Source: Escherichia coli (GTDB lineage Bacteria; Pseudomonadota; Gammaproteobacteria; Enterobacterales; Enterobacteriaceae). From it: a DNA stretch of 64,000 nt. Where the stretch lies: assembly GCF_017348835.2 (NCBI RefSeq), contig NZ_CP071375.1, one strand, 5' to 3'. Positions 27,101-30,100 of this stretch are shown here, in pieces; the first letter of the stretch is position 1; each line of letters begins with the position of its first letter. Made by a program: the position numbers.

Positions 27101-30100
27101 TCCTTCAGTGCATCATCATCGCCAGTATGAATTTCCGGCGCAATTCCTGTTTCACCAGGTCCAACAAATACTGCTCGGCGATCTATCAGCCAACGCCCAC
27201 GAATTTTTTGTGGTCTTGGAACGATGTATCCTAGTTTTCCGTATTTCACCAGGGTAGTGTTTGTTATTGGGAGACTGAACCGTTTTGGCTTCCACTCATC
27301 GAGCGTTATCAGGTACTGTTCGCTCATGGCTATCACTCCGGAACGCGCCAGTTGCAGAATACCAACGACAACTGGCGACGGTTGAACATTAAAAATCAGC
27401 CTGACTCGGGATCAGTTTTTGCCAGATAACTGAAACGTATTTTGCCTGATAACGGGCGTCATCAAGTGCATTATGGCGCTCACCTTCGAATGGAATAGCC
27501 GTTCTGGCATCGAAGTCTATGGCTTTCCCCAGCTCAACGATTGTGCGTACATCGCGATCGTTGTAGTAACGCCACGGGCAGGGGATCCCCTGCCGTTCGT
27601 ATGAACGGCGCAAAATCGTGTTATCGAAGTTGGCTCCATTTCCCCAGACCTGAACAAAAAATTCACCGGAGTTTTCGTCGATAAATTCCCGCAATTGTAA
27701 CAGTGCATCATCTAACGGGATTTCATCGGTCATAATGGCAGATTGCGCTTCGCGTGATTGCTTAAGCCACCATTTAATGGTGTCCCGATCAATGACTCCG
27801 CCAGCAGTTTCCAGATCGATAGTCTTACTAAATTCCGGTCCCATATCTCCGGTTTGCGGATCGAAAAATATTGCACCTATTGAGATGATCGGGGCATCAG
27901 GATTTTTTCCCATGGTTTCAAGGTCGATCATTAGATGGTCACACGTCCTGCTGGTGGATGTGATTTCTTGATGACCGTTCACCTTAATTGAGTGATCTGC
28001 CGTCTCGCCAGTTTCACTATCGCTGGCATGATGCTGATTGCCGCCAGTGTTCTCCTTGTGTGGATGTTCAGCGCCTTCCATTTTCTCCGGATCATCTTCC
28101 TGAACTTCAACCTGATACTCTTCATCGAATGTTTCCTGGTATGTTGCGTCGCCCATCACCGCGCCACAATCAGGGCAGTTGCCGCCGCCGGTCTGACCGC
28201 AGGCGGTGCAGGCTTTTTCCACTTCCTGTTGCGCCACTGGTTCAGGCTGTTTCGTTTCTGGCTCGTTTTGTAACGCATTTGGGCTGTTTTGTTCCGCTTT
28301 TTGGTAGTTCCGTTCCGATTCATGCTGGTTCTGGTTTACAGAATCGCGGGTCTGGATCCCCTTAACCCATTTCGGATCATTCGGGTCGCTAATCCCTGCA
28401 ACAAATTCTCCGCGAGAGGCAGCAAGCAACTTATCGGCGTCAGGCTGGCTGATATTGGCTGCCTGCATAATTTTGTTTACTTCGTCAGCGGTAACTTTTA
28501 CCGGCTCTGGTTGTGCGGTCGTGTCAGATGCACCAGTATTTTGTTGTGAACCTGAGTATGTACTGTTTTTGCGGGCGAAATATTCTTCTTTCGTGATTTC
28601 AGTAGCCCCGGCAGCCAGTGCCTTATCCAGACCAGAAAGTTTGTTTGCGCGACCGTATTTTTCGCCATCCTTGTCGGTGAAGAGGAAGTAGAACGGCCCC
28701 TCACGCTCTACAGATGGTTCGACTTCCACTTTGCATTCGGTTTTTTCGTTGTCCGGAATTGCCGTTTCCACTGCATCAGTTTCTGGTACTGGCGACGAGA
28801 GAGTATCAGTTGCGCTCTGATTTGTTCCTTCATCTTCAAACACGCCCTTTGTAGTCAGGTATTCAGTAATGTATTTGTTCAGTGCCACAGGGTCTTTGTG
28901 AATGTCGATCGGACGTTCACGGACAAGGCCAAAAATAGTCTGGCGGTCGTAGCGAAGGGCATCAGGCTGTTTGCGCATTGATGCCGAGATACGCTTCCAG
29001 TCTTCGCGGTCGTTGTCGATAACTTCATTTTTTGCCCAGCGATGGATGCTGCCGTCAATGTTTCCGGCATCCACATCACCAGGCCAGAGAGCGTAGGCCA
29101 GTTCGTCATCCAGTGTTTTCCATGTCTGCTTGTATTCGCGATGAATGGCAGCAATGACCGGGCTGATTTTTCCTGTTGAATTTTCAGTGTGCTGTTGATT
29201 GGTTCTGGCGCGGGCGAGATCAACAACAGACGTGTATTTTCCGGTTTCCTTGCGTTCACCTTCGCGACGTTTTTTCCAGATGCGCATCTCTGCCTGAATT
29301 TCGGGCCATTTGGCACCAGGCTTACATTTATGCTTAACCCACCCGATGGCATGCAGCTTAAGCTCCGGATACATGGCGTTAACTTCTGGCATTTTCATCA
29401 ACGCTTCAACGATATGTCCGTCGAATGTTGCCATGTCTTCCTGCAACAATTCCTGTGCGCTAATAACCATATCAACGGTGATGTTTTCACATGTGTCGAA
29501 CTTAACCATGACAGCGTTCTGTACTTCAGGGGCCAGCTTGTCAAAAGTGACGTTCATCGGATCTGATTCAGTCTCAACCGGAACAAAGGAAGCAGACTCC
29601 TCATCCCAGCGGTTTTCCTGCATATATTCAGCATCCCATGAATCGAGGGCAGGGCGGGGTATGCCAGGTTTATCCTCGCAGATAATAAATTTATAAGCGC
29701 AGTCCTGAGCAGCCGGATAATGTTCCAGGAATTGCCAGTGAAATTTTGCTCGAGCACGGCGTTCGTCGCCAGCTTCAATAGCTGTGGCTACAGCCACAGC
29801 GCCTTCTTCCCTTGTTGCCAGTTCGTCAGGAATGGCGGCGCAAATAAAGACTTTACTCATTTTGTTTTAACCTCATGACAGATTTAAGGATGAACAAATC
29901 CCTGCCATTGCTGGCATATAAGAATGAAACCGGATATTTATTACGGAACTGTTTTAAAGACCTGCCGGGATTTCGATATTATCCTGGTGAATAACTTTAT
30001 CGACCGGGTAACAGTTACCGGGAATTTTCTGTTCGGTTGCTGCAGTCATACACTCCTGCATTGTCCTGTGAACACTGACTGCAATATCAACTGGCTCTCC

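What the first reader, a model, noticed from the sequence alone, without database searches (positions are those of the whole stretch)
27389..29860. 823-aa exonuclease with zinc ribbon and long acidic linker
Only the C-terminal 180 aa are recognisable, as a DEDDh 3'-5' exonuclease. The N-terminal 600 aa include a CxxC…CxxC zinc ribbon and an acidic low-complexity stretch. The gene sits where lambdoid phages encode recombination or anti-host functions, and no Bet/RecT partner is visible.
Basis: partly seen in the sequence, partly recalled or inferred. Interest (0 to 1): 0.3.

Follow-up and report, generated by a model that had tools for sequence, protein, structure and literature searches.

The report
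RecE-like scaffold carrying a reversed-polarity exonuclease
This prophage gene encodes a mosaic relative of the recombination enzyme RecE: RecE's 5'-3' nuclease is replaced by a DnaQ/DexA-type 3'-5' exonuclease and there is no annealing partner. The form is catalogued and very common in E. coli, but its function has not been tested.

Summary
The 823-aa ORF at 27389-29860 (-) is real, intact and under purifying selection. The C-terminal 183 aa are a DEDDh 3'-5' exonuclease. They match Pfam Rv2179c-like, T4 DexA is the closest solved relative, and all five catalytic residues are present. The CxxC…CxxC motif and the acidic linkers are also there.

Residues 1-257 are 98% identical to the K-12 pseudogene product YdfE. 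Residues 475-611, including the zinc ribbon, share 86% DNA identity with K-12 recE.

The protein belongs to a narrow enterobacterial family. In it, a YdfE/RecE N-terminal scaffold is joined, in nearly all combinations, to a PD-(D/E)XK exonuclease (true RecE, with RecT next door), this DEDDh exonuclease (never with an annealase), a Rad52-like annealase, or no enzyme at all.

The gene is the only recombination-type gene in a dicF-dicB-ydfD-exo-xis-int operon. The prophage has no annealase or Gam and is rich in correctly oriented Chi sites. This matches the 'Tritos-type' nuclease-only module listed by Zheng et al. 2025.

The most likely role is DNA-end processing in phage recombination, but this is untested. 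The scaffold's fold matches nothing solved. Interest is moderate; I class it as a new variant of a known kind.

The parts
27389..29860 (-). Whole gene: 823-aa mosaic YdfE/RecE-scaffold plus DEDDh exonuclease
   Evidence: ORF listed. Identical CDS annotated by PGAP. PHROG 2082 matches the full length. Intact in Tritos, 813R8, L007 and L014.
29186..29860 (-). aa 1-225, N-terminal alpha/beta plus helical domain (YdfE_N type)
   Evidence: 98% identical to the K-12 YdfE fragment. AF2 pLDDT above 93 for aa 1-205. dN/dS 0.10. No structural relative found.
28826..29140 (-). aa 241-345, helical 'mid' domain (YdfE_C type), weakly homologous to RecE 278-345
   Evidence: pLDDT above 93. dN/dS 0.12.
28709..28825 (-). 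aa 346-384, first acidic disordered linker
   Evidence: 11 D/E against 2 K/R in aa 341-380. pLDDT below 50. Only 46% identity to Tritos where the flanks are 91-95%.
28550..28708 (-). aa 385-437, small beta-beta-alpha-beta-alpha domain ('GPFYF…GRANK…EITKEEY'), absent from K-12 RecE
   Evidence: pLDDT 93-97. Falls in a gap of the RecE alignment. Present in many relatives. dN/dS 0.07.
28030..28436 (-). aa 475-611, segment shared with K-12 recE at 86% DNA identity. Contains the 'LAASRGEFVxGISDPNDPKW' motif, the zinc ribbon and an acidic tail.
   Evidence: blastn hits at gene nt 1425-1548 and 1592-1831 against recE 1365-1729. dN/dS 0.10 against Tritos.
28166..28210 (-). aa 551-565, CxxC-x7-CxxC zinc-ribbon-like knuckles
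   Evidence: pLDDT about 70. Metal binding was not tested.
27941..28162 (-). aa 567-640, second acidic disordered linker leading into the nuclease domain
   Evidence: 13 D/E against 1 K/R in aa 561-600. pLDDT below 50. For aa 612-640, dN/dS is about 1.1 against Tritos, 1.7 against P0128 and 0.5 against 813R8.
27389..27940 (-). aa 641-823 plus stop codon, DEDDh (DnaQ/DexA/Rv2179c-like) 3'-5' exonuclease domain
   Evidence: Pfam PF16473, E 1.9e-67. PDB 8kel (T4 DexA), E 1.6e-6. Catalytic residues conserved. dN/dS 0.07.
31154..31182 (-). Sigma-70-like promoter (TTGACA-17-TATAGT) at the head of the leftward early operon
   Evidence: Consensus scan only, 11 of 12 positions matched.
30505..30556 (-). 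DicF sRNA, an upstream member of the operon
   Evidence: Rfam RF00039, 76.7 bits.
29954..30330 (-). dicB (30142-30330) and ydfD (29954-30145), immediately upstream of the exonuclease gene
   Evidence: PGAP annotation of the near-identical prophage. ORFs listed.
25971..27327 (-). xis (27058-27327) and int (25971-27089), immediately downstream. No annealase lies between the exonuclease gene and xis.

Best explanation
The gene encodes a modular recombination-slot nuclease of the RecE/YdfE scaffold family.

Shown:
- The protein has three confidently folded N-terminal modules (aa 1-205, 241-340 and 385-435).
- These are followed by a conserved linear motif, a four-Cys ribbon and an acidic tether that are nearly identical to the segment just before RecE's nuclease domain.
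- Where RecE has its PD-(D/E)XK 5'-3' exonuclease, this protein has a DEDDh 3'-5' exonuclease with a complete active site.
- It is the only recombination-type gene in the leftward early operon (DUF1391-DicF-dicB-ydfD-exo-xis-int). The prophage has no annealase, SSB or anti-RecBCD gene and is rich in correctly oriented Chi sites.

Inferred:
- When the prophage is induced, the scaffold places the tethered exonuclease at double-strand DNA ends, or on a host partner, in the way it places RecE's nuclease.
- The nuclease then trims 3' ends.
- This could prepare ends for the host RecBCD-Chi-RecA pathway, on which such Gam-less, Chi-rich phages are proposed to depend.
- Alternatively, it could expose 5' single strands that anneal without a dedicated annealase, as E. 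coli exonuclease III does in in-vivo cloning.
- Either route would help form concatemers or repair the phage genome.
For: Domain map and RecE relationship:
- The AF2 model built with a 60-sequence alignment has pLDDT above 93 in the three N-terminal modules.
- The catalytic DEDDh residues are invariant in fused relatives, in epsilon34 gp34 and in T4 DexA.

Selection:
- Folded modules are under purifying selection (dN/dS 0.06-0.2). Linkers mostly evolve near neutrality (dN/dS about 0.5-1.7) or have diverged too far to measure.

Links to recombination:
- Among 47 long representatives at 50% identity, the same scaffold is fused to PDDEXK (12), DEDDh (6), Rad52-like annealase (16) or a small helical end (6).
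- The Rad52 assignment rests on relatives that pass the Pfam PF04098 threshold.
- A PDDEXK form has a RecT-family gene next door.
- All five DEDDh loci examined lack an annealase.
- A stand-alone homologue 56% identical to the nuclease domain sits tightly between SSB and Abc2 in the epsilon34 recombination module. Zheng et al. 2025 regard it as a legitimate module member.

Match to a catalogued module type:
- Phage Tritos carries a 94% identical protein in the same gene order.
- Tritos is the prototype of a 'nuclease only, no anti-RecBCD, many Chi' class in that paper.
- This prophage has 9 Chi sites on the active strand and 2 on the other, all between int and the cos end.

Precedents:
- A 3'-5' exonuclease alone drives annealing-based joining in E. 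coli (XthA).
- Full-length RecE outperforms its isolated nuclease domain in linear-linear recombination, and its N-terminus is described as of unknown function.
Against: - There is no biochemical or genetic data on this protein or on YdfE.
- 3'-5' exonucleases usually inhibit homologous recombination, as Zheng et al. themselves note, because they destroy the RecA-loading 3' tail.
- The scaffold's fold matches nothing solved, so its role in placing the nuclease is pure inference.
- Relatives with the scaffold but no nuclease occupy the same locus. The scaffold may therefore have a function of its own unrelated to delivering a nuclease.
- The Pfam family is named for an exoribonuclease, so RNA cannot be excluded as a substrate.
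Confidence: 0.5

Rival explanations
1. The YdfE/RecE scaffold is the functional core, with an activity of its own such as binding or neutralising a host factor. The exonuclease would then be an interchangeable accessory, not a recombination enzyme delivered to DNA ends.
For: - Relatives with the scaffold and only a small helical C-terminus, and no nuclease, occupy the same KilR-[gene]-xis-int slot.
- Zheng et al. report 'RecE-2' proteins that lack a nuclease domain and have no known role.
- Conserved docking-like motifs ('GISDPNDPKW', 'GxGxFSxxxL') lie in linkers across all architectures.
- aa 475-611 is mostly predicted disordered, yet its dN/dS is 0.10.
Against: - All identifiable C-terminal partners are recombination enzymes. 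This points to a recombination-linked scaffold, not a generic anti-host one.
- The nuclease active site is strictly conserved.
Confidence: 0.17
2. It is a prophage-encoded defence nuclease of the HREX/EcD kind: a DexA-like exonuclease that degrades the modified (5hmC) DNA of superinfecting T-even phages.
For: - T4 DexA is the closest solved relative.
- Kang et al. 2025 show that a stand-alone E. coli DexA homologue, EcD, cuts 5hmC DNA and protects against T4.
- dicB, in the same operon, protects against some phages (title of PMC6832061, listed).
- The gene is retained in 75% of complete E. coli genomes.
Against: - DexA W152, needed for 5hmC recognition, is Tyr766 here and Cys in close relatives.
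- DexA D169 falls in an indel region with no assignable equivalent.
- EcD is a different, short, stand-alone protein: its primers encode MIDTET… at the start and …TIPETYD at the end.
- The gene lies at the far end of the leftward early operon, which in K-12 Qin is described as repressed (abstract of PMC10448788, listed). Expression in a stable lysogen is therefore doubtful.
- The RecE scaffold is unexplained under this model.
Confidence: 0.12
3. It is a 3'-5' exoribonuclease, as the Pfam name suggests, acting on phage or host RNA. One candidate target is the transcripts of its own DicF/dicB operon.
For: - The Pfam family PF16473 is named for the M. tuberculosis exoribonuclease Rv2179c.
- PGAP names some copies '3'-5' exoribonuclease domain-containing protein'.
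- The operon contains an sRNA that is processed from a longer transcript.
Against: - Only the DNA exonuclease DexA is found in a PDB sequence search at E up to 1.
- The stand-alone homologue lies inside a DNA recombination module.
- The domain replaces a DNA exonuclease on a recombination scaffold.
Confidence: 0.08
4. It is a functionless chimeric relic of prophage decay, or a misannotated true RecE (exonuclease VIII) whose RecT partner lies elsewhere.
For: - K-12 carries only an IS-truncated fragment, ydfE.
- Many database entries call it exonuclease VIII.
Against: - The ORF is intact and dN/dS is about 0.1 in every folded module.
- Copies covering at least 80% of the gene occur in 3532 complete genomes.
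- The gene is present in phage Tritos, the prototype of a phage class in Zheng et al. 2025.
- The NCBIfam RecE equivalog scores 279 bits against a cut-off of 1269.
- There is no PD-(D/E)XK domain and no RecT in the window.
Confidence: 0.03

Closest known systems
RecE (exodeoxyribonuclease VIII) of the Rac prophage, E. coli K-12
   Same: - Same slot in the leftward early operon, upstream of xis/int.
- Homologous central region (aa 262-625 against RecE 278-591, E 4e-62).
- A stretch of about 137 aa containing the Cys4 ribbon and acidic tail shares 86% DNA identity.
- The same layout: long scaffold, disordered tether, C-terminal exonuclease.
   Different: - The nuclease is DEDDh (3'-5') instead of PD-(D/E)XK (5'-3').
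- The N-terminal domain is the YdfE_N type, not PF06630 Exonuc_VIII.
- There is an extra small domain at aa 385-437.
- No adjacent RecT.
- The NCBIfam equivalog score is far below the cut-off.
Phage Tritos gp27 and the 'Tritos-type' nuclease-only recombination module (Zheng et al. 2025, PMC12315714)
   Same: - 94% protein identity over the full length.
- Identical gene order, dicF-dicB-ydfD-exo-xis-int.
- No annealase, SSB or anti-RecBCD gene, and abundant Chi sites.
   Different: Essentially the same thing. The paper classifies the module but does not dissect the protein or test its function. I could not see the paper's supplement, so I do not know how the authors typed this nuclease.
T4 DexA and the stand-alone phage DnaQ-like exonucleases (epsilon34 gp34; E. 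coli EcD)
   Same: - DEDDh fold family with all five catalytic residues.
- epsilon34 gp34 is 56% identical to the C-terminal domain and lies inside a recombination module.
   Different: - Those proteins are 180-230 aa and stand alone. This one is tethered to a 640-aa scaffold.
- DexA's 5hmC-recognition residues and its extra loops are not conserved.
YdfE of the K-12 Qin prophage (pseudogene b1577; Pfam YdfE_N and YdfE_C)
   Same: aa 1-257 are 98% identical, with the same dicB-ydfD neighbourhood.
   Different: K-12 ydfE is cut off by IS2 after about 257 codons. The window carries the intact ancestral-type gene.
Scaffold-Rad52-like annealase fusions (e.g. P0129, locus L008)
   Same: The same YdfE_N/YdfE_C scaffold, small domain and 'GISDP' motif, in the same operon slot.
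   Different: - The C-terminal domain is a Rad52/Rad22-type single-strand annealing domain instead of a nuclease.
- The locus also has Gam and Gp157 genes.

Membership tests
RecE / exodeoxyribonuclease VIII (NCBIfam NF007259 equivalog) | Full-length match above the curated cut-off (1269 bits) | tested here: not met
   279.1 bits. Only aa 246-625 align, to model positions 271-602 of 877.
RecE / exodeoxyribonuclease VIII | C-terminal PD-(D/E)XK 5'-3' exonuclease domain (PF12684-like, RecE 606-866) | tested here: not met
   K-12 RecE hits PF12684. This protein does not. No RecE-nuclease homology anywhere in the window.
RecE / exodeoxyribonuclease VIII | N-terminal Exonuc_VIII domain (PF06630) | tested here: not met
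   No PF06630 hit at E up to 0.1. The N-terminus is the YdfE type.
RecE / exodeoxyribonuclease VIII | Adjacent RecT-family annealase partner | tested here: not met
   Nothing lies between the exonuclease gene and xis. tblastn with RecT finds nothing.
RecE / exodeoxyribonuclease VIII | Central segment with the Cys4 ribbon and acidic tail just before the nuclease domain | tested here: met
   86% DNA identity and about 80% protein identity to RecE residues 455-590.
DEDDh (DnaQ-like) exonucleases, Pfam PF16473 Rv2179c-like | Profile match above the gathering score | tested here: met
   226.8 bits against 27; aa 642-813 cover the whole profile.
DEDDh (DnaQ-like) exonucleases | Exo I D-x-E, Exo II D and Exo III H-x4-D catalytic residues | tested here: met
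   D646, E648, D746, H796 and D801 are invariant across relatives and T4 DexA.
DEDDh (DnaQ-like) exonucleases | Metal-dependent 3'-5' exonuclease activity, and the substrate (DNA or RNA) | not testable with these tools
   Needs an enzyme assay.
HREX / EcD 5hmC-specific defence exonucleases (Kang et al. 2025) | Trp equivalent to DexA W152 (stacks on 5hmC) | tested here: not met
   Tyr766 here, and Cys in P0128 and P0136. The requirement is stated.
HREX / EcD 5hmC-specific defence exonucleases | Acidic residue equivalent to DexA D169 | tested here: inconclusive
   It falls in a DexA-specific indel. Two alignments place it differently.
HREX / EcD 5hmC-specific defence exonucleases | Selective cleavage of 5hmC DNA and protection against T4 | not testable with these tools
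   Needs nuclease assays on modified DNA and plaque assays.
YdfE family (Pfam PF27430 YdfE_N, PF27432 YdfE_C) | Homology to K-12 YdfE, and family hits in close cluster-mates | tested here: met
   98% identity over 257 aa. Proteins 73-100% identical carry precomputed PF27430 and PF27432. These models are not in the local Pfam copy, so the protein itself was not scored directly.
'Tritos-type' lambdoid recombination module (nuclease +, annealase -, SSB -, anti-RecBCD -, Chi-rich) | Nuclease homologous to that of Tritos, in the same gene order | tested here: met
   94% identity. Same dicF-dicB-ydfD-exo-xis-int order.
'Tritos-type' lambdoid recombination module | No annealase, SSB or anti-RecBCD gene; many Chi sites in the active orientation near the right end | tested here: met
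   PGAP annotation of the near-identical prophage lists none. tblastn finds no annealase. Chi count is 9 on the + strand and 2 on the - strand, all between 26.1 and 45.5 kb. SSB and Gam absence rests on annotation only.

The most novel reading that the evidence does not exclude
The YdfE/RecE N-terminal scaffold would be a general adaptor that enterobacterial temperate phages attach to whichever recombination effector they carry: a 5'-3' exonuclease, a 3'-5' exonuclease or a Rad52-like annealase. The DEDDh version found here is the commonest 'RecE' in E. coli. On this reading it would be a self-sufficient, annealase-independent recombination or end-processing system of reversed polarity that works through a still unidentified partner docking on the conserved linker motifs. 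That would give a direct experimental handle on an old open question: what the roughly 600 N-terminal residues of RecE do.
Probability: 0.2. Interest if true: 0.6.

Novelty: new variant of a known kind. Interest (0 to 1): 0.4.

Why it matters
- **Link to RecET.** RecET is a standard tool for recombineering, yet RecE's N-terminal two-thirds are still described as 'of unknown function'.
- **Prevalence.** The DEDDh-ended relative is far more common than canonical RecE/RecT. Its nuclease-domain DNA occurs in 4068 of 5426 complete E. coli genomes at 8107 places. The K-12-type recE-nuclease-plus-recT DNA occurs in 1749 genomes at 1840 places. The protein has never been characterised.
- **What the family pattern implies.** One scaffold is combined with nucleases of both polarities, and with an annealase. 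This argues that the scaffold carries a common, recombination-linked function. It also offers natural domain-swap variants for testing that function.
- **Link to Chi and RecBCD.** The finding bears on the recent proposal that Gam-less, Chi-rich lambdoid phages exploit host RecBCD. Here the single phage-encoded nuclease is the obvious candidate co-factor.
- **Annotation.** Database labels of 'exonuclease VIII / 5'-3' dsDNA exonuclease' for these genes are wrong about the chemistry.

Tried and rejected
- **Single-sequence AlphaFold2 of the full protein.** Useless: mean pLDDT 35.7. It cost one of the two prediction jobs.
- **PDB sequence searches.** The protein itself found only DexA. A 13-sequence profile of the scaffold-annealase relatives found nothing. 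The annealase domain alone gave only chance hits.
- **Fold searches with the confident 640-aa model.**
  - Foldseek against PDB: best E 0.75.
  - Foldseek against BFVD: best E 0.08.
  - The afdb50 library was not available.
  - No fold assignment was made from these.
- **Local Pfam.** It gives nothing for the N-terminal 640 aa or for eight relatives. The relevant families, PF27430 and PF27432, are newer than the local copy.
- **PHROG labels.** The 'exonuclease' label on the Rad52-like-ended relatives (phrog_2489, phrog_7838) was judged to be annotation carry-over.
- **Wasted or empty literature searches.** A word-start search for 'RecE' matched 'receptor'. 'Rv2179c' with 'prophage' found no paper. 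Searches for ydfE found no functional study.
- **First homologue search.** The search with aa 1-340 returned mostly near-identical partial E. coli entries. The 50%-identity representative search was needed to see the range of architectures.
- **Ideas considered and dropped.** Beta-clamp or SSB-tail mimicry motifs (no convincing match by eye) and a role in DicF maturation (no evidence).
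Full report
**1. Observation**

The window has an 823-codon ORF on the minus strand at 27389-29860. It starts with ATG and has a GAGG about 10 nt upstream. RefSeq annotates the same CDS as 'exonuclease' in prophages that are 99.8-100% identical.

The C-terminal 183 residues match Pfam PF16473 (Rv2179c-like 3'-5' exonuclease) end to end (E 1.9e-67). Four cysteines form CxxC-x7-CxxC at positions 551-565. Two stretches are strongly acidic (aa 341-380 and aa 561-620).

The statement that nothing else is recognisable is not.

**2. Genomic setting**

The window is E. coli chromosome (potD, potC) with a lambdoid prophage starting at about 25.9 kb. The leftward early operon starts at a near-consensus promoter at 31182-31154. 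It then runs through:
- a DUF1391 gene;
- the DicF sRNA (30505-30556; Rfam 76.7 bits);
- dicB and ydfD;
- the 823-aa gene;
- xis and int.

This is the gene order of the K-12 Qin prophage. There the gene survives only as the IS2-truncated pseudogene ydfE, which is 98% identical over 257 aa. The equivalent position in the Rac prophage holds recE-recT.

No RecT, Rad52-like annealase or RecE-type nuclease is detectable anywhere in the window by tblastn. PGAP annotates no annealase, SSB, Gam or Abc2 in the near-identical prophage.

**3. Anatomy**

BLASTP against K-12 RecE aligns aa 262-625 with RecE 278-591 (E 4e-62). NCBIfam's RecE equivalog model hits only aa 246-625, at 279 bits against a cut-off of 1269.

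Similarity along the gene is very uneven:
- aa 475-611 are about 80% identical to RecE, and 86% identical at the DNA level.
- This stretch contains the motif LAASRGEFVxGISDPNDPKW, the Cys4 ribbon and the acidic tail.
- The flanks on both sides are unrelated or only distantly related.

In RecE this segment lies immediately before the PD-(D/E)XK nuclease domain. Here it lies immediately before the DEDDh domain. The gene is therefore a mosaic in which the nuclease module has been exchanged.

An AlphaFold2 model of aa 1-640 was built with a 60-sequence alignment of family members.
- Three modules are very confident: aa 1-205, 241-340 and 385-435, all with pLDDT above 93.
- The region around aa 475-500 and the ribbon are moderately confident.
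- aa 346-382, 439-456, 502-546 and 567-640 are predicted disordered.

Pairwise dN/dS against Tritos, 813R8 and other copies fits these boundaries. It is 0.06-0.2 in every folded module and in the RecE-shared segment. The linkers are mostly near neutral (about 0.5-1.7) or too divergent to measure. This is a maintained gene, not debris.

**4. The nuclease domain**

The only solved relative found by sequence is T4 DexA (8kel/8ken, E 1.6e-6), a 3'-5' DNA exonuclease. D646, E648, D746, H796 and D801 align with the DEDDh catalytic set. They are invariant in fused relatives, in epsilon34 gp34 and in DexA.

Kang et al. 2025 (PMC12153337) reported that DexA recognises 5hmC through W152 and D169. They also reported that a stand-alone E. 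coli homologue, EcD, defends against T4. Here W152 corresponds to Tyr766, and to Cys in close relatives. D169 lies in a DexA-specific indel. The EcD primers show that EcD is a different, short protein. I therefore do not place this protein in the HREX group.

**5. The family**

A search of 1.84 billion representative proteins with aa 1-640 found only 250 clusters, so the family is narrow. Source names are Escherichia and Shigella for the close set. For the annealase-ended relatives the names include Serratia, Yersinia, Klebsiella, Providencia and Xenorhabdus.

I mapped modules onto the 47 representatives of at least 480 aa. N-terminal types are YdfE_N, RecE_N (PF06630) or other. C-terminal types and their counts are:

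| C-terminal type | YdfE_N | RecE_N | Other N | Total |
|---|---|---|---|---|
| DEDDh | 2 | 3 | 1 | 6 |
| PDDEXK | 3 | 5 | 4 | 12 |
| Domain of about 230 aa (Rad52-like, see below) | 15 | 1 | 0 | 16 |
| Small helical end | 5 | 1 | 0 | 6 |

Of the other seven, one is an in-frame RecE-RecT fusion (P0196) and six have none of these C-terminal domains.

The domain of about 230 aa carries the signature GEAQKKSLTDAIKKALSLLGFSADVWLGLYD.
- It is about 40% identical (E about 1e-42) to stand-alone proteins that pass Pfam's Rad52_Rad22 threshold (26-30 bits against 20.3).
- It scores 17.8 bits itself.
- I therefore read it as a Rad52-like single-strand annealing domain. PDB sequence and profile searches could not confirm this directly.

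**6. Partners by architecture**

- A YdfE-scaffold/PDDEXK protein is followed by a RecT-family gene (PF03837, E 2e-36).
- A scaffold/Rad52-like protein lies between Gam and a Gp157 gene.
- A scaffold-only protein has no partner.
- Every DEDDh form examined is followed directly by xis/int with no annealase. These are the window, Tritos, vB_EcoS-813R8, P0128 in a Rac-like operon, and P0248.
- A stand-alone copy of the DEDDh domain (56% identity) sits between SSB and Abc2, next to the putative annealase, in the epsilon34 recombination module.

**7. Literature**

- RecE's N-terminal region is described as of unknown function. Full-length RecE improves linear-linear recombination over the nuclease domain alone (PMC11611040).
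- Zheng et al. 2025 (PMC12315714) surveyed 325 lambdoid phages.
  - They report DnaQ-like 3'-5' nucleases in recombination modules. They remark that such nucleases usually inhibit recombination.
  - They mention 'RecE-2' proteins without a nuclease domain.
  - They list a 'Tritos' class of four phages with a nuclease but no annealase, SSB or anti-RecBCD gene, and with many Chi sites.
- Tritos gp27 is 94% identical to the protein studied here.
- No paper in the library studies YdfE or this protein functionally.

**8. Chi sites**

The window has 19 Chi octamers against 2.9 expected. Inside the prophage, 9 lie on the + strand between 26.1 and 45.5 kb. That is the arm between int and the lysis/terminase (cos) end. 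Two lie on the - strand, and none lie in the head and tail genes.

From established knowledge of Chi polarity, + strand Chi sites are the active orientation for RecBCD entering at the right cos end. The prophage therefore fits the class that Zheng et al. propose relies on host RecBCD.

**9. Mechanism**

Shown: a complete DEDDh active site is tethered by a disordered acidic linker to a conserved scaffold. That scaffold is otherwise attached to recombination enzymes. It sits in the recombination slot of a phage without its own annealase or RecBCD inhibitor.

Inferred: the scaffold brings the nuclease to DNA ends or to a host partner, and 3' ends are trimmed. The outcome would be one of two things:
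- ends suited to RecBCD loading; or
- 5' single-stranded tails that anneal without an annealase. The precedent is E. coli exonuclease III in RecA-independent in-vivo cloning (Nozaki and Niki).

I put about 0.9 on the structural identity and about 0.4-0.5 on the recombination/end-processing role.

The main rivals are listed with their tests in the rival-explanations section:
- an autonomous scaffold function;
- HREX-like defence;
- an RNA substrate;
- a functionless relic.

**10. What the scaffold is**

Short motifs are conserved in the linkers across all architectures: GISDPNDPKW, GxGxFSxxxL and SNEGEKTEV. The strong constraint on the mostly disordered aa 475-611 points the same way. Together these suggest docking sites for an unidentified partner.

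**11. Prevalence and verdict**

DNA of the DEDDh domain occurs in 4068 of 5426 complete E. coli genomes, at 8107 places. K-12-type recE-nuclease-plus-recT DNA occurs in 1749 genomes, at 1840 places. The widespread database label 'exonuclease VIII' is wrong about the chemistry.

The gene family is already catalogued:
- PHROG 2082;
- Pfam YdfE_N, YdfE_C and Rv2179c-like;
- the Tritos class of Zheng et al.

The finding is therefore not categorically new. It is an uncharacterised, reversed-polarity variant of RecE. What this analysis adds is the module-swap relationship, the combinatorial scaffold family including Rad52-like fusions, and the link to Chi and the missing anti-RecBCD gene. Interest is moderate (0.4).

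Noticed in passing
window 26134-45496 (Chi sites); whole window for the count: There are 19 Chi octamers (GCTGGTGG) against 2.9 expected. Within the prophage, 9 lie on the + strand and 2 on the - strand, all between int and the lysis/cos end. None lie in the head and tail genes from 46 to 64 kb. One Chi (27950-27957) lies inside the exonuclease gene, on the antisense strand.
   Followed up: partly
window 30505-30556 (-): A DicF sRNA gene (Rfam RF00039, 76.7 bits) lies upstream of dicB in the same operon as the exonuclease.
   Followed up: yes
window 40752-40827 and 40928-41004 (+): Two tRNA genes follow the Q-like antiterminator gene. One has anticodon CAT (ARAGORN calls it Met, PGAP calls it Ile). 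The other is tRNA-Arg with anticodon TCT.
   Followed up: no
window 32690-34519 (+): A single 609-aa ORF joins a replisome-organiser-like N-terminus to an IstB/DnaC-like ATPase. In near-identical prophages (L001, L002) the same DNA is annotated as two CDS, some of them frameshifted or incomplete.
   Followed up: no
L008 5001-7337 (P0129) and 15 other representative clusters: These relatives have the same YdfE/RecE scaffold fused to a Rad52/Rad22-like single-strand annealing domain instead of a nuclease. In L008 the gene is flanked by Gam and a Siphovirus Gp157 gene. PHROGs label these families 'exonuclease', which looks like annotation carry-over.
   Followed up: partly
P0196 (703 aa): This is an in-frame fusion of the RecE N-terminus plus half of the zinc ribbon to the body of RecT. 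It could be a deletion product or an assembly artefact.
   Followed up: no
window 28346-28435 (aa 476-505) and equivalent linkers of relatives: Short motifs are conserved across the whole scaffold family whatever the C-terminal domain. 'LAA(A/S)RGE(F/Y)VxGISDPNDPKW' is present here. 'GxGxFS(I/V)(D/E)xL' and 'SNEGEKTEV' are seen in relatives. They look like docking peptides for an unknown partner.
   Followed up: partly
L011-L013 (P0126, 702 aa): Scaffold-only relatives end in a small helical domain ('…YQQQLTIAALHGLCANPA…') and have no nuclease or annealase. They sit in the same KilR-[gene]-xis-int slot. They may be the 'RecE-2' proteins of Zheng et al. 2025.
   Followed up: partly
window 25228-25894 (+): Two small genes lie between potC and int at the prophage edge: a 204-nt hypothetical gene and a DUF2335 gene. 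They are probably cargo genes at the attachment site.
   Followed up: no
E. coli complete genomes: DNA of the DEDDh exonuclease domain is present in 75% of complete genomes, at up to 7 places per genome. K-12-type recE-nuclease-plus-recT DNA is present in 32%.
   Followed up: yes
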